DNA from: a virus
Taxonomy: Duplodnaviria; Caudoviricetes
Direction: 5' to 3' (one strand)
IMG/VR virus record: IMGVR_UViG_3300005764_001667
Location: 1-56,241 of that record
DNA: 56,241 nt
The notes below the pieces were generated by a model. That model made no database searches. It had not been told where the DNA came from and saw only the letters and a program-made list of their open reading frames with translations. Shown in pieces: positions 7,440 to 55,370 of the stretch; positions within the stretch are counted from its first letter, which is position 1, and each line of letters opens with the position of its first letter. A program made the translations under genes and the position numbers.

Positions 7440-7650
7440 CCGTCTCGACCCAGCACACCGCCCCACAGGAGAGTGGTTTGTCGGGCCGGTAAACGACACG
7501 AGCAACCTCCACGCCCTGCGAGTCGTAGATCACGACTTCGTGAGCGTAGTGGTTGCTCTTGTAGGTTTTAACGGTAATGACCGGCTCGCGGGCACCCGTC
7601 TTCCGGTTTGATTTAATCCGGTGCTGGTTGACGTGGATTATGGTTTTCAT
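7417..7650 (-). CDS. conserved small phage protein
   Basis: MKTIIHVNQH...PVITVK...PDKPLSCGA.CWVET, a pattern I recall from large-phage hypotheticals. Confidence 0.65.
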   Translation of the reverse strand: MKTIIHVNQHRIKSNRKTGAREPVITVKTYKSNHYAHEVVIYDSQGVEVARVVYRPDKPLSCGAVCWVETVNQVRLQ

Positions 7651-9247
7651 ACCGTTGGAACAATGGGGTGGGGCGTCCCTGGTTCAGAATATCGCGTGCC
7701 ACCCCCAAATCATAATCCAGACGACCCTCCGGCTGGTATAGCAGTTGGCGGAAATATTCCAGGTCCACTTCCTCCCAGGGTTTGCGGAAGGTAAACGACT
7801 CGTATATCTTCCGCGAGGTCTGTGGCAATATCGGTTTGAGCAGGATCGCCACCGCCCGCAGCCCGTTCATCAGGTTGCCGATGACCCCCGCCGCCTTCTC
7901 GCGGTCGGTCTTGATGAGCGCCCAGGGTTTCTGCTCGTCAATAAAACGGTTCATCGCCGCCAGGTCGCGCCAAATGTTCTCCAGCACGGTGCGGTAGAAA
8001 CAGTTCTCGATATTGTCGCAGTACGCCAGGTAGGCGTTGGCACCGAACGGCACGATCCCTTCCGGCTGCTCGGTCACCGACAGGTCGCCGTCGAAATAAC
8101 GGATGGCCATGCTGACGGTGCGGCTCAGCAGGTTGCCCAGGTTGTTGGCCAGGTCGGCGTTATAAACCTCGACAAAGTGATCGAAACTGAATTCACCGTC
8201 GCTGCCGTAGTCGCAGCGACTCAGGAAGTAATAGCGGTAGGCGTCACAGCCGAACTCCTTGACCAGTTCCATCGGGTCGAGGAACTTCCCGCTTTTGCTG
8301 GCCTTTTCGCCGTCGATGTTGATGAAGCCGTGGGCGAAGACCTTCTTTGGAAGCTCCAGTTCGTAGTAAGAACCCTCGTGGCCCTCGTTGTAGGCAATAA
8401 TCATGGCGGGCCAGAGAGCGCAGTGAAACTTGGTAATGTCCTTGCCAATGAAATGCACATCGGCAGGCCACCACGTCATGTCCGGCCCTTCCTTGTCCAT
8501 GCCCACCCCGGTCAGGTAGTTGAGCAGGGCGTCAAACCAAACGTAGATCACCTGGCTGTGGTCCCAGGGGACCGGAATGCCCCAGCCCTCGTTGCGGCGG
8601 CTGATGGAAATATCAAGCGGCTCACCGTCCGGGTCGTCCAGTTCAAAGGACACAAACTTCACGACCTCGTTATATCGGGACTCCGGCTCGATCACCAAAT
8701 CCGGGCCGGCGATGGCTTTCGGAGCCAGCATGTTAATGAGCTTGTTGCGGAACTTGTGAAGAAGGAAAAAGTAGTTCTCCTCCTCGGTCGTGCGAAGCTC
8801 CTGCTTGGGGTGGTTGGGACAGCGCCCGTCCACAACCTCCTTGGTCGTCTTGTAGGCTTCGCAGCCGTCACAATACAGGCCGGAGTATTTGCGCTTCTCG
8901 ATGAAGCCGGCCTTGTTCACCATCTGAATAAAGTGCTGGACGCCCTCGCGGTGGCGCTGTTCGGTGGTCTGGATAAAGCCGTCGTAGGAAATATCGAGGG
9001 CGTCCCACACGGCTTTGAACTCTGCGGCCATGCGGTCGCAGTACGCCTTGGGGTCTTCACCGAGATCGCGGGCACGCTGGGCGACCTTCCAGGTGTTCTC
9101 GTCGTTGCCCATCAAAAAGAAAACATCGTCGCCTTTGAAGCGACGATAGCGGGCCTGCACGTCGGCACCGATCTTCTCGAAGGCCGTCCCGATGTGGGGA
9201 CGGCTGTTGGGGTAGTCAATGGCCGTGGTCAGGAAAAACTTCGCCAT
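7613..9247 (-). CDS. metG: methionyl-tRNA synthetase (544 aa, no C-terminal dimerisation domain)
   Basis: TTAIDYPNSRPHIGT (HIGH variant), CxxC knuckle, ISISR, YVWFDAL, IGKDI, KASKS, NADLANNLGNL; SD GAGGG before ATG 9247. Confidence 0.95.
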   Translation of the reverse strand: MAKFFLTTAIDYPNSRPHIGTAFEKIGADVQARYRRFKGDDVFFLMGNDENTWKVAQRARDLGEDPKAYCDRMAAEFKAVWDALDISYDGFIQTTEQRHREGVQHFIQMVNKAGFIEKRKYSGLYCDGCEAYKTTKEVVDGRCPNHPKQELRTTEEENYFFLLHKFRNKLINMLAPKAIAGPDLVIEPESRYNEVVKFVSFELDDPDGEPLDISISRRNEGWGIPVPWDHSQVIYVWFDALLNYLTGVGMDKEGPDMTWWPADVHFIGKDITKFHCALWPAMIIAYNEGHEGSYYELELPKKVFAHGFINIDGEKASKSGKFLDPMELVKEFGCDAYRYYFLSRCDYGSDGEFSFDHFVEVYNADLANNLGNLLSRTVSMAIRYFDGDLSVTEQPEGIVPFGANAYLAYCDNIENCFYRTVLENIWRDLAAMNRFIDEQKPWALIKTDREKAAGVIGNLMNGLRAVAILLKPILPQTSRKIYESFTFRKPWEEVDLEYFRQLLYQPEGRLDYDLGVARDILNQGRPTPLFQRYENHNPRQPAPD

Positions 9248-9827
9248 AGTAGCCCTCCTCTTCCAGACCGCATTGCTCACAGTGGTTGGTGGGGCACAGA
9301 CCAAGCATGACCGGGCAATCTTCCAGCCCGTACTTGCACCCATGCTTGGTGCAGCAGTGCGTGGTGCAGCACAGGTTCCGCTCCAGTACATCCTTCTCCC
9401 AATCGGCCTCCAGGTCTGTTTTCGCGTCCGCCATCATTGTAGATGGCTTCGGGTCCGTAAAGAACGCCTGCGGTTCCTTCAACTTGCTCGTTTTTGGCCA
9501 GGGGCAGGGCACACGCTGGTTTTGCTGGTTAAAAAAGACCCGCTCCTTCACCCGCTTGTTCCCATCGCAGACCTTACACACGCCATTCTGCTGGAACCCG
9601 AAGGCAAATCCAGTGGCCTGACAGGACCGACAGGGGAACCCTTTCTCCTCGATCTCGTTCTCCTTGAGCCAGGCAAACAGGCACGCCAAGTTACAAAAGA
9701 AGTATTCCCACTTGGGCTGGTCGTAGTGGTGACAAGCCGGGCAAACGCGGTTCTCGTACTCGAAGGACAACTGCAAGTCAAACGACCCCTCGGCACCGCA
9801 GTGGGAACAGTGGATGACGCAAATCAT
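9216..9827 (-). CDS. Cys-rich zinc-finger protein
   Basis: Multiple CxxC pairs, including DnaJ-like CxxCxxxG. Confidence 0.6.
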   Translation of the reverse strand: MICVIHCSHCGAEGSFDLQLSFEYENRVCPACHHYDQPKWEYFFCNLACLFAWLKENEIEEKGFPCRSCQATGFAFGFQQNGVCKVCDGNKRVKERVFFNQQNQRVPCPWPKTSKLKEPQAFFTDPKPSTMMADAKTDLEADWEKDVLERNLCCTTHCCTKHGCKYGLEDCPVMLGLCPTNHCEQCGLEEEGYYGEVFPDHGH

Positions 9828-39234: not shown

Positions 39235-39591
39235 CTAGGGGTCAGCACCGGGAGATAACGGGGTATCGGGCCGCTTTTGCCCTTCCGCCTTGGTTGCCTC
39301 CTTTTGCCTCCGCAACATGCCATGTTTACCTCCTTTGAGTACGCGACTCGGATAGTTTATATAGCCGTCCATGCCTTCATCTTCCTTTTTCTTCTCGTCG
39401 TATTCATAAAACGACGAGTAGTCGTCGGTGATTACCACCTGCAAGTCGTGGTGGTGAATCAAGTAGTCCTTGTACTGCGAGCGGTCGGCTTCGTTGTAAA
39501 CCCGGAAGAACAGTTCCCCGTTCACGCCGCGTAGCAAGTAGCCCTTGACGTTGTGGGCCGAGGTTTCATTGGCTTGGAAGGTTCGTTCCAT
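39235..39591 (-). CDS. hypothetical protein
   Basis: ORF downstream of valS. Confidence 0.6.
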   Translation of the reverse strand: MERTFQANETSAHNVKGYLLRGVNGELFFRVYNEADRSQYKDYLIHHHDLQVVITDDYSSFYEYDEKKKEDEGMDGYINYPSRVLKGGKHGMLRRQKEATKAEGQKRPDTPLSPGADP

Positions 39592-40957
39592 GTTGCACCT
39601 TGGGTTTGAGTTTGATGAGGGTGCCTGGCATGAACACCCCCATGTATTCGCGCATGTCGTCGTAGATGGCCCGTAATGTGCCGTTCATGGGCTGGCGCTT
39701 GGATTCTTCAATCCGAATGGCGCAGAAACGGTGCCAGAAGTATTCAAAGAACAACTCGCCGGCCTCCGGCCAGTCATAGTCCTCGAAGGCGGCATTGATG
39801 CCCGCTTTGCGGTCCAGCCACTCCTTCCAGACTGCCTCGTTGGTGGTCTGGTCCGCGTGCATTTCCAAGAAACGCTCCGCGTTGCGCCACTTGGTAACAC
39901 ACCGTTTCCCGTATTCCATGCACACAGGGTTGATGCGGGTGTCGGAGCCGATGGTGGACTGTGCGGCCCAATAGCGAACGCCATCGGACGTGTGCTGGTC
40001 GAAGTATTCATTCGGCGGCTTGTAGTTTCCCTCCGTCTTGGAGATTTTCTTCCCTTTGGGGTCCAGGGCGTGACCACTGATGACGATGGTGCGCCAGGGA
40101 ATCTGATCGTTGTGGAGGACGCTTTTAATGATGGTGAATAGCGCCCAGGTGCGGATGATGTCGTGGGCCTGGAACCGAACGTCAAATATCGGACACTTGA
40201 GCGTGTTCTGGTATTTCCCTTCCTCATGCCAGGCTAGTTGCGGTGATAAACTGGACGTGTGCCAGGTGTCGAAGACGATGCCGGGCGGTTCTCCGGGGAT
40301 GGGGATGCCGTAGTTTCGCTCGCGGCTGATCGACCAGTCCTGGTTGCACTGGTCCAGCCAGGCCAGCAGGCGGTCTTTATATTTCTGCGGCTTCCAAACG
40401 ATCTGGTTGATGGCGGCGCGGATGCGTGGCAGGTTGTCGAGGACTTTTATGAACCAGCCCTCGCCCCGCCGGATTTCGACCTTTTCGCCGCTTCGCTCGT
40501 ACCGCCCGTCCTCGGTCAGTTCGTTTTGGGAGACGGAAACCTTGGTGACCGGGCAGAAGAAATAGTCCCGCTCGGCTTTGTACGCCTGGCCCTTGGCCAC
40601 CAAGTCGTGGAACGAGAGTTCGGCCAGGCGGACGGCGAAGGGGCTGAAAGTGCTATAGTGATGCCACGAGTAGGCCATCGCCAGGCGCATGAACAGGATG
40701 TGGTAGGCGAGGGCTTCGCCGTGGGAGAACCCGATGATTTGGTCTTGCTGCATAATGCCCGCAGCGTGGGCCAGTTTCTCCGTTGGGAGGCCGTTGTTGT
40801 CGTAACAGTACGGGTAGACGAGGTATTCGTCTTTTATGTGTCTGTGGTATCGGGCAATGAAGTCCATCTGGGCGTAGCTGAAAACATGGCCCATGTGGAG
40901 GGTGCCGCTAACGGTAGGCGGCGGAACGTCGATGAGGAATTTTCTGTCCTTGTTCAT
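39566..40957 (-). CDS. valS: minimal valyl-tRNA synthetase (463 aa; CP1 editing, CP2 and coiled-coil absent)
   Basis: ID.PPPTVSG.LHMGH, DNNGLPTE, DWSISR, FDTW..SS, QAHDIIRTW, KISKT. Confidence 0.92.
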   Translation of the reverse strand: MNKDRKFLIDVPPPTVSGTLHMGHVFSYAQMDFIARYHRHIKDEYLVYPYCYDNNGLPTEKLAHAAGIMQQDQIIGFSHGEALAYHILFMRLAMAYSWHHYSTFSPFAVRLAELSFHDLVAKGQAYKAERDYFFCPVTKVSVSQNELTEDGRYERSGEKVEIRRGEGWFIKVLDNLPRIRAAINQIVWKPQKYKDRLLAWLDQCNQDWSISRERNYGIPIPGEPPGIVFDTWHTSSLSPQLAWHEEGKYQNTLKCPIFDVRFQAHDIIRTWALFTIIKSVLHNDQIPWRTIVISGHALDPKGKKISKTEGNYKPPNEYFDQHTSDGVRYWAAQSTIGSDTRINPVCMEYGKRCVTKWRNAERFLEMHADQTTNEAVWKEWLDRKAGINAAFEDYDWPEAGELFFEYFWHRFCAIRIEESKRQPMNGTLRAIYDDMREYMGVFMPGTLIKLKPKVQHGTNLPSQ

Positions 40958-41063
40958 GGCGCAGTTGTCGGTTAGGGTGCGTGAAACGGCTGGGGTTGCG
41001 ATCCCACAAGGACTCGCAACCCTGACGCACGCCGACAACAAACCTGACTGCAACAAGGTGCAT
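40908..41063 (-). promoter_or_regulatory. Val-rich leader peptide/attenuator of valS
   Basis: TATAAT(41070-41075)-N6-ATG; MHLVAVRFVVGVR... has 5 Val in the first 12 codons, the last three lying in a long hairpin that ends a few nt before the valS ATG. Confidence 0.65.
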
Positions 41064-46671: not shown

Positions 46672-46699
46672 TCCGTAAAGGAGTATGCCAAGTTGAAAA

Positions 46700-46784
46700 T
46701 GCCCCCGCCAGGACTCGAACCCGGACACCCGTTACAGGTACTTGGGCCTAAGCCAAGCGCGTCTACCTTTTCCGCCACGGGGGC
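46700..46784 (-). tRNA. tRNA-Leu(UAG)
   Basis: GCCCCCG/CGGGGGC+A73, loop CT-TAG-GC, long variable arm, GGTTCGAGTCC; no encoded CCA. Confidence 0.95.
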
Positions 46785-46788
46785 AATG

Positions 46789-51678: not shown

Positions 51679-52011
51679 TTATTTGCAGCACCATGCGATG
51701 AGGCACGCGACCCCAAGCACGCAGAGGCCGATAGCGACCCAATACCACCAGGCCGATCCGTGACGGGCGCGTGGCACCCACATCGTTATGTGCGGCTTGT
51801 GGTGCTGGGCGGCGTCCTGGCGTGTGAGCTTATCGAGGAACAGGTGGCAGTTGCCGCAGTAGTGCTGTTGAATATCGTCCCGGTTGTAGCTGGTCATGCC
51901 GCACAGGTGGCAGGTTATGCCGCCGTCGCGGACGGTGTAATTTTTACCCTGGTGTTCTTTCTTGGCCTGCTCCAAGTGCTGTTGGATAAGCCGGCGATTA
52001 CTTTGAGTCAT
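51679..52011 (-). CDS. Zn-finger membrane-anchored protein
   Basis: CHLCG..S....D....YCGNCH; C-terminal TM. Confidence 0.55.
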   Translation of the reverse strand: MTQSNRRLIQQHLEQAKKEHQGKNYTVRDGGITCHLCGMTSYNRDDIQQHYCGNCHLFLDKLTRQDAAQHHKPHITMWVPRARHGSAWWYWVAIGLCVLGVACLIAWCCK

Positions 52012-53179
52012 AATGCACCCGCTCCCCGAAAATGTGCGGCACGAAGCGGCTCATGTTCTGGGTGATCCGGCCCCCGTCCTCGCGGACGCCCATGCCGCAA
52101 GCCCAGCCGTTGACGATCCAGCTTCCGATCACCGGGAAGTGGCCGTCGAAATTTGGAAGTTCCCAAAGTTCTTGGTATATTGCAGGGCCGTCGTATGGCC
52201 CCTCCGTCTCCTCCACCTTCTCGCCATGCTCGAAGATGGCGATGTTGGCACCCTCCCGTGACAAGATCGGTTTCTTCACATAATCCTTGATGTCGTGGAT
52301 TTCCAGGTCCACCGGGTCGAAGTAGCACGCCAGCAAGTAAGTGTTGTTCGGATACAACTCCCACAACGTCGGCAGTAGTGCCTTGTTGCTTAACAGGGAC
52401 TTCCAGGGCGGCTCCCACCACTTGGTCCGGGCCTGGCGCAGATACGGGCCAAACTGCTCGCGCATCAGCCATTCCCAGGGGTAGAGTTTGAAGATTTGTT
52501 TGATCTCCCGCTCTTGCAAGTCGGTGAAGATGCCGCTCGCCTGGTTCCAGCCCACGTCGTCTATGTCCAGGTACTCCACCCCCGCCAACGGCCCGAAGCC
52601 CGCCTGCACGGCCACGTCCTTGAGGTAGTTGACGGTCATGTAGTCTTCGACGCTGCCCTTGAGCGCTGCGAAATAAAAACGCTCATCCCCGACCTGTTCG
52701 CGGATGACTTTGAAGACTTCGAGGAGGCGGTCGTGGATGCTGTTGAACTGGTCGCCGCCCGGATGCACGTCTTTCAACCAGAACCACTGGATCACCGAGG
52801 CTTCGAGCAGGGACGTTGGCGTGTCGGCGTTGTACTCAAAAAGCATCGGGTCGTGGCCGGGCTGGAAGCAGAAGTCGAAGCGACCGTAGATGGTGTGGTC
52901 ATCTTCTTCCCAGGAGCGCACGATGTAGTCGTCGTAACCGGGCGGGATTTGGAAGCGGTCGAAAAGATCGTGGTCGATGATGTGCTGCACCGCCGCCAGG
53001 CACATCTCGTTGAGGGCGTAAGTGGCCTTCTCGATCTGGTCCACTTCTGCGCGGCTGAATTCGTAGTAGGCAGACTCGTTCCAGTAGGGCGCACCGTCCT
53101 CGCTGGTGTGGAAATAGAGTCCCTGGCCTTCCACTATTTTCTGCCAGTTCTCACGAGGTTCCACCGTGAGCCTTCGCAT
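51998..53179 (-). CDS. glutathionylspermidine synthase family ATP-grasp ligase (YgiC/YjfC-like)
   Basis: YW.E.AYY, YGRFD, EYNADTPTSLLEA, FKLYPWEW, EPPWK..LSNK, KP..SREGAN, RED. Confidence 0.93.
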   Translation of the reverse strand: MRRLTVEPRENWQKIVEGQGLYFHTSEDGAPYWNESAYYEFSRAEVDQIEKATYALNEMCLAAVQHIIDHDLFDRFQIPPGYDDYIVRSWEEDDHTIYGRFDFCFQPGHDPMLFEYNADTPTSLLEASVIQWFWLKDVHPGGDQFNSIHDRLLEVFKVIREQVGDERFYFAALKGSVEDYMTVNYLKDVAVQAGFGPLAGVEYLDIDDVGWNQASGIFTDLQEREIKQIFKLYPWEWLMREQFGPYLRQARTKWWEPPWKSLLSNKALLPTLWELYPNNTYLLACYFDPVDLEIHDIKDYVKKPILSREGANIAIFEHGEKVEETEGPYDGPAIYQELWELPNFDGHFPVIGSWIVNGWACGMGVREDGGRITQNMSRFVPHIFGERVHYDSK

Positions 53180-54086: not shown

Positions 54087-55370
54087 TTATACCGGGTGGT
54101 CCAAAGGTTGTAAAGCCAAACCAGGGGCGAAGCAGTGGAGCATCGGGAGCAGCGCCGCCACCGTCGCGGGGGAAGGCTTTTTCTCCCGATTCTTGTTGTA
54201 AAACCCCATCAGGGTGGAGACGACCTTGTTGACCTTCCAGCTTTGTAAGTAGTGGTGGACCTGGGCGTGGAGATCGGTCAGGTCGATGTCGTTTTCACCG
54301 GGCTGGGACAGCCAGCGCCGCAGCCGGCCCAGGAACCGGCGAATACCCGTGATGGCTTTGTCGTCCCAATCACCCCCTTCCTGATACGGTCCCAGGAACA
54401 TTAGATAAAGGCGCAGTTCGTCGGGGTCGTAATCGTCGGGGTTGACGGCGTTGCCTTTGCTTTTTCCCATCTTGGCACCGCCCGCCGTTATCATGCCCTG
54501 GTGGACGACGTGTTTGAAGGGTTCCTCCTGCGTGACGATGCCCAAGTCGTAGAGGAACATATTGATAAAGCGGGCGTAGATCAGGTGCATACACGCATGT
54601 TCCGGCCCGCCAACGTACAGGTCCACCGGCTGATAGTTGTGGGCGTGCAGGAAAACCTCCGGGTCATTTTCCAGGTAGCGGAGGAAATAAAAGCTGGAAT
54701 CCACGAACGTGTCCAGCGTGTCCGTGTCGCCCTCGATGGGGATGGGGCAACCCCACTTGCGTTGGCGGGACACGCACCAGTCACGCAGGCCCTCCAGCCA
54801 GACCCTCTGCTGCTTGCGGGTGCCTTCGGGGTAGTCGATCCGGTCCAGGTTGTCGATGAGCCGGTCCTTGTAGGCGGTGATTTTGAAATACCACTGGTTG
54901 AGTTGGCGGACCTCCGGCTTGGCGCTACAACGATTGCAGTAGCCACCGCTCACCTGCTCGTTCGCCAGCACGGTGTCGCAGGAGGGGCAGTAGTTGACCG
55001 GGCCGAAGGCTTTGTACGCCAGCCCCTTGTTCTTCAGCAGGGTGAAGAGCCACTGCGTCCATTTGTAGTAGGAAGGGTCACAAGTCACCAGCTTTTCTTC
55101 GTACTGCGTGTTCATGCGGGCCATCTGCGCCCGGAACCGTTCGATGTTGCCCCAGGTGACGGTCTTGGGGTCGCCGCCGATGGAGCGGGCGTAGTTCTCC
55201 GCAGGCAGGCCGAAGGCGTCGTAGCCGAAGGGCTGGAAGACTTCGGTGCCGAGGTAACGCAGCCACCGGCAGTAGGAGTCCACGATTGCGTAGTTGTAGC
55301 AGTGCCCCAGGTGCAGGCCCGCGCCGGACGGGTAGGGAAACATCACGCAGCAATAGAATGGTTTACTCAT
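54087..55370 (-). CDS. leuS: minimal leucyl-tRNA synthetase (427 aa; CP1, CP2, Leu-specific and C-terminal domains absent)
   Basis: MFPYPSGAGLHLGH, DAFGLPAEN, YYKWTQW.F, TVLANEQV, LRDW..SRQR.WG.PIP, DTFVDSS, YVGG.EHA..HL.YARF, KMGKSKGN. Confidence 0.95.
   Translation of the reverse strand: MSKPFYCCVMFPYPSGAGLHLGHCYNYAIVDSYCRWLRYLGTEVFQPFGYDAFGLPAENYARSIGGDPKTVTWGNIERFRAQMARMNTQYEEKLVTCDPSYYKWTQWLFTLLKNKGLAYKAFGPVNYCPSCDTVLANEQVSGGYCNRCSAKPEVRQLNQWYFKITAYKDRLIDNLDRIDYPEGTRKQQRVWLEGLRDWCVSRQRKWGCPIPIEGDTDTLDTFVDSSFYFLRYLENDPEVFLHAHNYQPVDLYVGGPEHACMHLIYARFINMFLYDLGIVTQEEPFKHVVHQGMITAGGAKMGKSKGNAVNPDDYDPDELRLYLMFLGPYQEGGDWDDKAITGIRRFLGRLRRWLSQPGENDIDLTDLHAQVHHYLQSWKVNKVVSTLMGFYNKNREKKPSPATVAALLPMLHCFAPGLALQPLDHPV

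What the first reader, a model, noticed from the sequence alone, without database searches (positions are those of the whole stretch)
39566..40957. ValRS with CP1 replaced by a few residues
Seen: CPVTKVSVSQNEL-TEDG-RYERSG...WF bridges the position of the ~150-aa editing domain. GIPIP-GEPPG-IVFDTW removes CP2. The C-terminal coiled coil is absent. The signatures PPPTVSG and QAHDIIRTW resemble archaeal-type ValRS. Known: ValRS needs CP1 to clear Thr-tRNA(Val). Inference: it would mischarge Thr unless the active site is more selective.
Basis: partly seen in the sequence, partly recalled or inferred. Interest (0 to 1): 0.78.

Follow-up and report, generated by a model that had tools for sequence, protein, structure and literature searches.

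The report
Editing-free mini ValRS of huge phages
A huge soil phage carries a half-size valyl-tRNA synthetase that keeps the catalytic core but has lost its proofreading domain, and it belongs to a large conserved phage family that tests how much proofreading translation needs.

Summary
The minus-strand ORF 39566-40957 encodes a 463-aa class Ia synthetase with intact HIGH (HMGH) and KMSKS (KISKT) motifs and a ValRS-type valine pocket. Its best curated model is the 801-position ValRS model PRK13208 (332 bits; cut-off 738). Three parts of that model are missing: about 158 alignment columns of the CP1 editing domain (junction at residues 149-153), about 46 columns at GIPIP|GEPPG, and about 116 C-terminal columns. 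The AlphaFold model (pLDDT 93) has the domain content of a minimal MetRS.

This is not a one-off or a broken gene. The window is a fragment of a huge phage. The 120 best relatives are all 423-644 aa, on contigs up to 770 kb, and form one clade. dN/dS against the closest relative is 0.12.

No separate CP1 was found in the window or in two complete related genomes (488 and 519 kb). Both of those encode tRNA-Val with A35, C36 and A73. The window also carries a CP1-less LeuRS-like gene, and other ValRS lineages lost CP1 independently.

Best reading: a proofreading-free ValRS that charges tRNA-Val during infection. Charging and Thr mischarging remain untested. No description in print was found.

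The parts
39566..40957 (-). CDS of the 463-aa short ValRS (P0001); stop codon at 39566-39568
40904..40924 (-). PPPTVSG (residues 12-18), the ValRS-type start of the amino-acid pocket; aligns with PPPNVTG of 1GAX
40886..40897 (-). HIGH motif HMGH (residues 21-24)
40799..40801 (-). Asp53, invariant; aligns with Asp81 of 1GAX (its role in binding the alpha-amino group is recalled, not tested)
40454..40552 (-). Residues 136-168, a short beta-hairpin that stands where the CP1 editing domain is inserted in full-length ValRS; junction at EDGRY (149-153, window 40499-40513)
40271..40309 (-).
40145..40171 (-). QAHDIIRTW (residues 263-271); D266, I267 and W271 align with D490, I491 and W495 of 1GAX
40034..40048 (-). 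KMSKS motif, here KISKT (residues 304-308)
39617..39928 (-). Residues 344-447, a four-helix anticodon-binding bundle. It keeps K356, N359, A360, F363, F406, F407, W408, E417 and K420, which full-length ValRS also conserve. Residues 448-463 form a low-confidence tail.
54087..55370 (-). Second editing-less class Ia gene of the same window: a 427-aa LeuRS-like protein (FPYPSG..HLGH, KMGKS, CxxC..CxxC knuckle kept, no CP1)
7613..9391 (-). 592-aa MetRS (PRK12267 501 bits; TIGR00398 420 bits, over its cut-off of 336)
46699..46785 (-). tRNA-Leu(tag), the only tRNA gene in the window

Best explanation
The gene encodes a phage-made, proofreading-free minimal valyl-tRNA synthetase. It descends from an archaeal-type ValRS by in-frame loss of three parts: the CP1 editing domain, a second insertion in the Rossmann fold, and the C-terminal junction and coiled-coil modules. 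What remains has the domain content of a minimal MetRS: Rossmann fold with a short CP hairpin, the KMSKS region, and a four-helix anticodon-binding bundle.

During infection by a huge phage it would activate valine and load it onto tRNA-Val, whether phage-encoded or host. It would recognise A35, C36 and A73 with the retained bundle and core. Because the valine pocket is unchanged and the hydrolytic site is gone, it cannot clear Thr-tRNA(Val) itself. The phage either tolerates the errors or relies on the host's full ValRS to re-edit released product.

Shown: the anatomy, the conservation, the phage setting, the absence of a separate CP1, and the presence of suitable tRNA-Val genes in relatives. 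Inferred: Val activation, tRNA-Val charging, Thr mischarging and trans-editing by the host.
For: Identity. ValRS models score highest (PRK13208 332 bits, E 7e-99), and 1GAX is the best solved relative by sequence.

Catalytic integrity. HMGH and KISKT are present. In 85 family members H21, G23, H24, D53, W232, D266, I267, W271, K304 and K307 are invariant. P12, P13, D53, W232, I267 and W271 align with P41, P42, D81, W456, I491 and W495 of 1GAX. These positions are conserved alike in 121 short and 120 long ValRS.

Anticodon domain. The bundle motifs K356, N359, A360, F363, F406, F407, W408, E417 and K420 are conserved at 90% or more in both sets.

Fold. The model has pLDDT 93.1 and pTM 0.90. It covers whole minimal MetRS chains (2d54: TMq 0.80, TMt 0.74) and the core of ValRS 1GAX (TMq 0.81, TMt 0.45).

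Selection. dN/dS is 0.12 against L009, 0.21 against L010 and 0.31 against L011.

Family. The best 120 relatives are 423-644 aa, median 447.5. All 41 sampled short proteins form one clade with SH-aLRT 99.

Phage setting. The window is an IMG/VR record estimated 11% complete. Relatives lie on records of 343-533 kb, two of them with terminal repeats. A terminase is over cut-off in 3 of 5 of these records, including the closest one. One relative is in GenBank huge phage LR745206.1.

Substrates. Complete relatives G003 and G004 encode 3 and 2 tRNA-Val genes, all with A35, C36 and A73.

No separate CP1. Searches found none.
Against: No biochemical or expression data exist.

The protein scores far below the curated ValRS cut-off (332 against 738 bits). 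The Pfam anticodon-domain match is below threshold (16.9 against 25.1 bits).

It lacks the C-terminal modules that contact the tRNA elbow and anticodon stem in 1GAX. Their deletion is recalled to weaken T. thermophilus ValRS (Fukai et al. 2003, recalled, not read here).

Huge phages carry 50-60 tRNAs anyway, so tRNA-Val genes in relatives are weak support.

The window holds only about 11% of its genome, so a partner encoded elsewhere cannot be excluded for this phage itself.

My ValRS-based CP1 profile missed 1 of 5 phage IleRS editing domains, and the Pfam editing-domain model PF13603 missed the same one, so a very divergent free-standing editing protein could escape.
Confidence: 0.65

Rival explanations
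1. A ValRS-derived paralogue that no longer serves translation. It still makes an aminoacyl-adenylate but passes the amino acid to another acceptor, such as a small molecule, a carrier protein or a modified tRNA base. Alternatively it only binds tRNA-Val as a decoy or shield.
For: It has lost three tRNA-handling parts. It scores under half of the equivalog cut-off. NCBI names one member only 'class I tRNA ligase family protein'. Truncated synthetase paralogues with new acceptors are known (GluQRS and MshC are cited in the reference list of PMC9437257, seen).
Against: The anticodon-bundle motifs and the pocket residues are conserved exactly as in true ValRS. The remaining architecture equals that of a fully active minimal MetRS. 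No conserved partner gene was found: only 3 of 11 loci share the small neighbouring ORF. The same genomes also carry MetRS, IleRS and many tRNAs, which fits a translation module.
Confidence: 0.2
2. The family is a relic that never had CP1: a pre-editing ValRS preserved in phages rather than a secondary loss.
For: In both trees the short clade is not nested inside the sampled CP1-bearing ValRS. It is sister to them or sits in a basal polytomy.
Against: The roots rest on two very long outgroup branches (2.2-3.5 changes per column), and the tool warns about such joins. CP1 editing domains are shared by ValRS, IleRS and LeuRS, which places them before these enzymes diverged (established knowledge). 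Other CP1-less ValRS are nested among CP1-bearing ones with support of 98-99, so loss does happen. The short family's pocket and motifs are those of modern archaeal-type ValRS.
Confidence: 0.05
3. Editing is supplied by a separate phage-encoded CP1-like subunit, making this a split enzyme.
For: Only 11% of this phage's genome is in hand. Split class Ia synthetases exist (Aquifex LeuRS, recalled).
Against: The window and G003 were searched in six frames with my CP1 profile; the best E was 2.4. G004 was searched the same way; the best E was 1.8. The full ValRS and IleRS models and PF13603 hit CP1 positions only inside IleRS genes in 5 related records, and PF13603 hit nothing in the window. As a control, the CP1 profile found 4 of 5 phage IleRS editing domains.
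Confidence: 0.04
4. A decaying gene, or an assembly or gene-calling artefact.
For: No evidence supports this beyond the low score against the full-length models.
Against: The frame is open with all motifs present. dN/dS is 0.12-0.31. More than 100 relatives have the same length and the same junctions. The stretch is held by soil DNA runs of several studies.
Confidence: 0.01

Closest known systems
Canonical ValRS (T. thermophilus, PDB 1GAX; NCBIfam PRK13208 archaeal type)
   Same: Class Ia Rossmann core, HIGH and KMSKS motifs, the PPP/D/W/DI/W valine pocket, and the helical anticodon-bundle motifs.
   Different: It lacks the CP1 editing domain, the second insertion, and the C-terminal junction and coiled-coil domains. 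It has 463 aa against about 800-860, and scores 332 bits against a cut-off of 738.
Mycoplasma mobile LeuRS, a natural class Ia enzyme without CP1 (PDB 3ZIU)
   Same: The editing domain is naturally absent from an otherwise intact class Ia synthetase. The folds match (TMq 0.76, TMt 0.62).
   Different: Different amino acid (Leu). It is a cellular enzyme and the cell's only LeuRS, and it keeps its C-terminal domain (chain of 575-637 residues). That it mistranslates is recalled from Li et al. 2011, not read here.
Minimal MetRS core (for example T. thermophilus 2D54/1A8H, 500 aa)
   Same: Same overall domain content and size. These are the best whole-chain fold matches (TMq 0.75-0.80, TMt 0.69-0.74). 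The GIPIP-to-FDTW junction has no insertion, as in MetRS.
   Different: By sequence it is ValRS, not MetRS: MetRS models score 60-73 bits against 332. There is no Zn knuckle in the CP hairpin (only C135 nearby).
Synthetases of huge phages (Al-Shayeb et al. 2020, PMC7162821)
   Same: It is encoded on a huge-phage genome together with many tRNAs. One family member lies on LR745206.1, a 634,780-base 'uncultured phage' record. The paper reports up to 15 synthetases per genome (passages seen).
   Different: The passages seen do not mention missing editing domains or reduced architectures. The paper's supplementary tables could not be opened.
Stenotrophomonas jumbo phage RAS14/CM1 'valyl-tRNA synthetase' (WAX21612.1, 449 aa)
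   Same: A phage ValRS with PPPNITG..HLGH and KFSKS motifs and no CP1, no second insertion and no C-terminal domain.
   Different: It is of the bacterial type (PRK05729 314 bits against PRK13208 173). It is only 24% identical and falls outside the clade in the tree, so it is an independent loss. It comes from a cultured phage.

Membership tests
Valine-tRNA ligase (ValRS, class Ia) | Class I signature motifs HIGH and KMSKS | tested here: met
   HMGH at residues 21-24 and KISKT at 304-308. H21, G23, H24, K304 and K307 are conserved in 85 relatives.
Valine-tRNA ligase (ValRS, class Ia) | ValRS-type amino-acid pocket (PPP..[ST]G, Asp, FDTW Trp, D-I...W) | tested here: met
   P12, P13, D53, W232, I267 and W271 align with P41, P42, D81, W456, I491 and W495 of 1GAX and are conserved in short and long sets. 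The pocket roles of the 1GAX residues are recalled from Fukai et al. 2000.
Valine-tRNA ligase (ValRS, class Ia) | CP1 editing domain that hydrolyses Thr-tRNA(Val) | tested here: not met
   Model positions 193-342 are unmatched. About 158 long-only columns fall between residues 149 and 153. The CP1 profile gives no hit.
Valine-tRNA ligase (ValRS, class Ia) | Second Rossmann-fold insertion (CP2) between the GIPIP strand and FDTW | tested here: not met
   About 46 long-only columns fall between residues 221 and 223. 1GAX residues 413-452 are unmatched. The name CP2 follows IleRS usage (passages of PMC13752280); I did not map it on a structure.
Valine-tRNA ligase (ValRS, class Ia) | C-terminal junction domain and coiled coil | tested here: not met
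   About 116 long-only columns follow residue 457. The model ends with helices up to residue 447 and a disordered tail. The C-terminal profile gives no hit.
Valine-tRNA ligase (ValRS, class Ia) | Helical anticodon-binding domain | tested here: inconclusive
   PF08264 scores 16.9 bits, below its cut-off of 25.1. However, the model has a confident four-helix bundle at 344-447, and its motifs are conserved as in full ValRS.
Valine-tRNA ligase (ValRS, class Ia) | Score over the curated whole-protein cut-off of an equivalog model | tested here: not met
   PRK13208 332 against 738, TIGR00422 199 against 612, PRK05729 145 against 704.
Valine-tRNA ligase (ValRS, class Ia) | Forms Val-tRNA(Val) | not testable with these tools
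   Needs an enzyme assay.
Naturally editing-domain-less class Ia synthetases (M. mobile LeuRS kind) | Intact synthetic core with the editing domain deleted in frame, conserved under selection | tested here: met
Naturally editing-domain-less class Ia synthetases (M. mobile LeuRS kind) | Mischarges near-cognate amino acids | not testable with these tools
   Needs Thr and aminobutyrate misacylation assays.
Methionine-tRNA ligase | Sequence membership in MetRS models | tested here: not met
   MetRS models score 60-73 bits against 332 for ValRS. The likeness is in fold and architecture only.
Huge-phage translation genes | Encoded on a tailed-phage genome of more than 200 kb | tested here: met
   The window is a virus record estimated 11% complete. 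Relatives lie on 343-533 kb records, two with terminal repeats. A terminase is over cut-off in 3 of 5 of them. One relative is in LR745206.1. No capsid or terminase gene lies in the window itself.

The most novel reading that the evidence does not exclude
Losing the proofreading domain is a repeated, adaptive move of large phages, not an accident. ValRS lost CP1 at least three to four separate times: in this archaeal-type family, in two further metagenomic lineages, and in the bacterial-type enzyme of cultured Stenotrophomonas jumbo phages. LeuRS lost it in the same genomes, while IleRS kept it. These phages would then run part of their protein synthesis with half-size, editing-free chargers. 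Possible gains are speed, insulation from host control, or a dedicated pairing with phage tRNAs. The cost would be a measurable Val-to-Thr statistical proteome.
Probability: 0.25. Interest if true: 0.8.

Novelty: new variant of a known kind. Interest (0 to 1): 0.62.

Why it matters
ValRS is a textbook case for the double-sieve idea, in which the synthetic site cannot exclude threonine and CP1 removes it. A large family of ValRS that has dispensed with CP1, is under purifying selection, and has shrunk to about 450 residues gives three things.
(i) A natural experiment on how much editing translation needs when a second, editing enzyme (the host's) is present and the time horizon is one infection cycle.
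(ii) A lower bound on the parts a ValRS needs to recognise tRNA-Val.
(iii) Compact scaffolds for minimal or orthogonal translation systems.

The contrast inside the same genomes, where IleRS keeps its editing domain and ValRS and LeuRS do not, makes the question of which proofreading steps are dispensable directly testable. The RAS14/CM1 phages offer a cultured system for this.

Tried and rejected
- Expression: the look-up of sequencing runs listed 8 soil-metagenome DNA runs and no RNA holder. No reads were laid.
- PHROGs has no family for the short form. It gave only partial matches to a 903-position family of unknown function.
- BFVD holds no comparable short ValRS. The giant-virus IleRS and LeuRS it lists are 812-1353 aa.
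- Cellular genomes: a scan of species-representative genomes with the family profile returned only ordinary full-length ValRS at 28-38% identity in the best 80 of 583 confirmed matches. One member is labelled as a Nanoarchaeota MAG contig of 82 kb.
- Conserved partner: the 118-aa ORF next to the gene is shared by only 3 of 11 loci. It has no Pfam or PHROG family, and its Atlas score of 0.83 is at chance level. It was rejected as a general partner.
- Origin of other CP1-less ValRS: the listing of cluster members gave no informative names.
- Literature: six searches and one on the Stenotrophomonas phages found no paper describing a CP1-less ValRS or reduced phage class Ia synthetases.
- Papers read as passages only: PMC7162821, PMC9437257 (hits in the reference list only), PMC11580382 and PMC13752280. 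All others were seen as search listings. Supplementary tables were closed; Supplementary Tables 6 and 7 of PMC7162821 may list these genes.
- A pseudogene or artefact reading was rejected on conservation.
- No complex-prediction job was run, because no protein-protein binding claim is made.
Full report
**What is there**

Window 39566-40957, minus strand, is an open frame of 463 codons. A longer TTG start at 41056 exists, but relatives begin at the ATG (consensus MxxxYLIDxPPPT).

Pfam sees the class I catalytic domain: PF00133 scores 138.5 bits and PF09334 75.3 bits. The anticodon domain is sub-threshold (PF08264 16.9 bits against 25.1).

Among NCBIfam models the ValRS models lead:
- PRK13208: 332 bits
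- alt_ValS: 246 bits
- TIGR00422: 199 bits
- PRK05729: 145 bits
- IleRS: 133 bits, LeuRS: 77 bits, MetRS: 73 bits

None reaches its whole-protein cut-off. PRK13208 passes its cut-off in 4 of the 14 control genomes, and that set contains four archaea.

**The missing parts**

Three comparisons agree.
- Against 1GAX, query 6-64 pairs with 35-92, 168-221 with 359-413, and 228-427 with 452-661 of 862.
- The 801-position model matches only at 35-192, 343-411 and 458-664.
- An alignment of 121 short proteins with 30 of the 120 long ValRS found gives long-only columns as follows: about 158 between residues 149 and 153, about 46 between 221 and 223, 10 after 370, 13 after 424 and about 116 after 457.

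Profiles of the three parts, built from all 120 long ValRS, do not hit the protein.

The AlphaFold2 model, made with 85 relatives, is confident (pLDDT 93.1, pTM 0.90). It shows a beta-hairpin at the CP1 site and four helices at 344-447, followed by a disordered tail. Foldseek ranks whole minimal MetRS chains first (2d54: TMq 0.80, TMt 0.74). ValRS 1GAX matches only in its core (TMq 0.81, TMt 0.45). The naturally CP1-less M. mobile LeuRS matches at TMq 0.76, TMt 0.62.

So the protein is a ValRS cut down to the domain content of a minimal MetRS.

**Is the catalytic machinery intact?**

HMGH and KISKT are present. In 85 family members H21, G23, H24, D53, W232, D266, I267, W271, K304 and K307 are invariant.

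P12, P13, D53, W232, I267 and W271 align with P41, P42, D81, W456, I491 and W495 of 1GAX. That these line the valine pocket is recalled from Fukai et al. 2000. They are conserved alike in 121 short and 120 long ValRS.

Fixed differences between the two sets are few: I74/C, Y85/F, G167/Q, S209/C, I220/F and F229/M. None is at those pocket positions. I therefore see no sequence sign of a more selective synthetic site.

The anticodon-bundle motifs K356, N359, A360, F363, F406, F407, W408, E417 and K420 are conserved in both sets. This argues that tRNA anticodon binding is retained.

dN/dS is 0.12 against L009 (dS 1.09), 0.21 against L010 and 0.31 against L011.

**Setting**

The window is an IMG/VR virus record with a CheckV completeness estimate of 11%. 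This implies a genome of roughly half a megabase.

Its other genes include:
- a DnaB-like helicase, a family A polymerase, a DNA methylase and two helicases
- two glycosyltransferases and a glutathionylspermidine synthase
- an SSB-like protein
- a 592-aa MetRS and a 427-aa LeuRS-like protein
- one tRNA-Leu

A profile scan of viral contigs found 11 loci, on records of 32-533 kb. Of the five records searched whole, two have direct terminal repeats (G003 488 kb, G004 519 kb). A large terminase is over cut-off in 3 of 5, including the closest relative G001. It was not found in G003.

A 42%-identical copy lies on GenBank LR745206.1, an 'uncultured phage' of 634,780 bases.

G+C ranges from 30% (G004) and 48% (G003) to about 57% (the window). 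The family therefore spans phages of very different hosts.

**Family**

Among proteins of 254-811 aa, 1479 of the 4660 candidates scored at E <= 0.001. The 120 best are 423-644 aa (median 447.5) at 43-91% identity. Nine of the 120 sit on contigs over 300 kb, and none sits on a contig over 770 kb. By contrast, 3 of the 120 best long ValRS sit on contigs over 1 Mb.

The best full-length ValRS reach only 289 bits and 29-39% identity.

In a tree of 41 of the 121 short rows, 40 of the 120 long rows and two outgroups, the short rows form one clade (SH-aLRT 99) and the long rows another (97).

**A separate editing subunit?**

The full ValRS and IleRS models and Pfam PF13603 hit CP1 positions only inside IleRS genes of G002 and G005. 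PF13603 hits nothing in the window.

My CP1 profile, run on six-frame translations, gave a best E of 2.4 for the window plus complete G003 and 1.8 for complete G004.

As a control it found the editing domain of 4 of 5 phage IleRS (E from 1.5e-10 to 7e-5). It missed the reduced one of G004, which still carries WTTTEWT, and PF13603 also missed that one. A very divergent free-standing domain could therefore escape.

**Substrates**

G003 has 63 tRNA genes plus a tmRNA, including tRNA-Val(gac) and two tRNA-Val(tac). G004 has 51 plus a tmRNA, including two tRNA-Val(tac). All five tRNA-Val genes have A35, C36 and discriminator A73. These are the classical ValRS identity elements (recalled).

**Wider pattern**

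The LeuRS-like gene of the window (FPYPSG..HLGH, KMGKS, zinc knuckle kept) also lacks CP1. Counterparts of 426-434 aa occur in G001, G004 and G005. IleRS in G002 and G005 is full length.

I sorted the 150 best 50%-identity representatives with my three profiles:
- 75 have all three parts
- 28 have CP1 and the C-terminus
- 19 have none (several of these are fragments)
- 10 have the second insertion and the C-terminus but no CP1

The rest are partial (one search also classed P0242, which is counted separately here).

In a tree of 64 chosen rows, the placements were:
- The query's core clade of 13 short rows has support 100.
- Four more short rows form a clade (support 91) in an unresolved polytomy.
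- P0341 is sister to a CP1-bearing ValRS (99).
- P0275, P0285, P0302 and P0316 form a clade (98) nested among CP1-bearing ones.
- One row I had classed as CP1-less (P0381) in fact has a 120-residue insert.

The 449-aa 'valyl-tRNA synthetase' of the cultured Stenotrophomonas jumbo phages RAS14 and CM1 is of the bacterial type (PRK05729 314 bits). It also lacks all three parts.

CP1 is ancestral to Val-, Ile- and LeuRS (established knowledge). Taking that as given, these are at least three, and probably four, independent losses.

**Reading**

Most likely (0.65) this is a working, proofreading-free ValRS that adds Val-tRNA(Val) capacity during infection. Threonine errors would be tolerated over one lytic cycle, or re-edited by the host's full ValRS. 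Both of these last points are inference.

The main rival (0.2) is a paralogue with another acceptor or a non-catalytic tRNA-binding role. Its support is the loss of the C-terminal tRNA-binding modules and the sub-threshold scores.

A never-had-CP1 relic, a split enzyme and an artefact are each unlikely.

**Novelty**

Huge phages are known to carry synthetases (PMC7162821, passages). A CP1-less LeuRS is known in M. mobile (structure 3ZIU listed; the biology is recalled).

I found no description of a CP1-less ValRS or of this reduced family in seven searches. Supplements were closed. JGI labels members plainly as 'valyl-tRNA synthetase'.

I rate it a new variant of a known kind, with interest 0.62.

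Noticed in passing
window 54087-55370 (-): A 427-aa LeuRS-like protein (bacterial leuS model 394 bits against a cut-off of 548). It has FPYPSG..HLGH, KMGKS and a CxxC..CxxC knuckle, but no CP1 and no C-terminal domain. Counterparts of 426-434 aa occur in G001, G004 and G005.
   Followed up: partly
L130 2881-4230 (OP752703.1, Stenotrophomonas phage RAS14; also CM1 OP883945.1): Cultured 319-kb jumbo phages encode a 449-aa bacterial-type ValRS (P0242) that also lacks CP1, the second insertion and the C-terminus. It is an independent loss and a possible laboratory system.
   Followed up: partly
proteins P0260, P0275, P0285, P0302, P0316, P0283, P0341 (one search hits): Other metagenomic ValRS lack CP1 but keep other parts. 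For example, the 671-673 aa forms have the second insertion and the C-terminus. In the tree they sit apart from the query's family. Their genomic origin is unknown.
   Followed up: partly
window 39235-39591 (-): A 118-aa ORF whose start overlaps the end of the ValRS gene by 26 bases. It is conserved beside the gene in L009, L010 and L011 only, and has no family in Pfam or PHROGs.
   Followed up: partly
G004:C1:193000-196800 (L126) and G005:C1:95055-97235: The IleRS of G004 is reduced (666 aa). It still carries the WTTTEWT editing motif but is about 100 residues shorter over the aligned stretch and lacks about 170 residues at the C-terminus compared with the G002 IleRS. The IleRS match of G005 contains one in-frame TAG.
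   Followed up: partly
G003 (L100-L124) and G004 (L132-L157): G003 carries 63 tRNAs, a tmRNA, two tRNAs with anticodon CTA and one with TCA, so stop-codon recoding is possible. G004 carries 51 tRNAs, a tmRNA and three tRNA-like genes with irregular anticodon loops.
   Followed up: no
window 7613-9391 (-) and 46699-46785 (-): A 592-aa MetRS of ordinary core architecture, and a tRNA-Leu(tag). Together with the two reduced synthetases they form a translation gene set scattered among replication genes.
   Followed up: no
window 51998-53179 (-): A glutathionylspermidine synthase-like gene (PF03738, 468 bits), unusual cargo for a phage.
   Followed up: no
window 40995-41020 (-): An inverted repeat (7-bp stems, 12-base loop) about 40 bases upstream of the ValRS start codon. 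No Shine-Dalgarno-like sequence lies before the ATG.
   Followed up: no
proteins P0039 (644 aa) and P0104 (534 aa): Two family members carry extra domains according to the precomputed Pfam hits: PF00107 in P0039, and an N-terminal extension with PF27001 in P0104.
   Followed up: no
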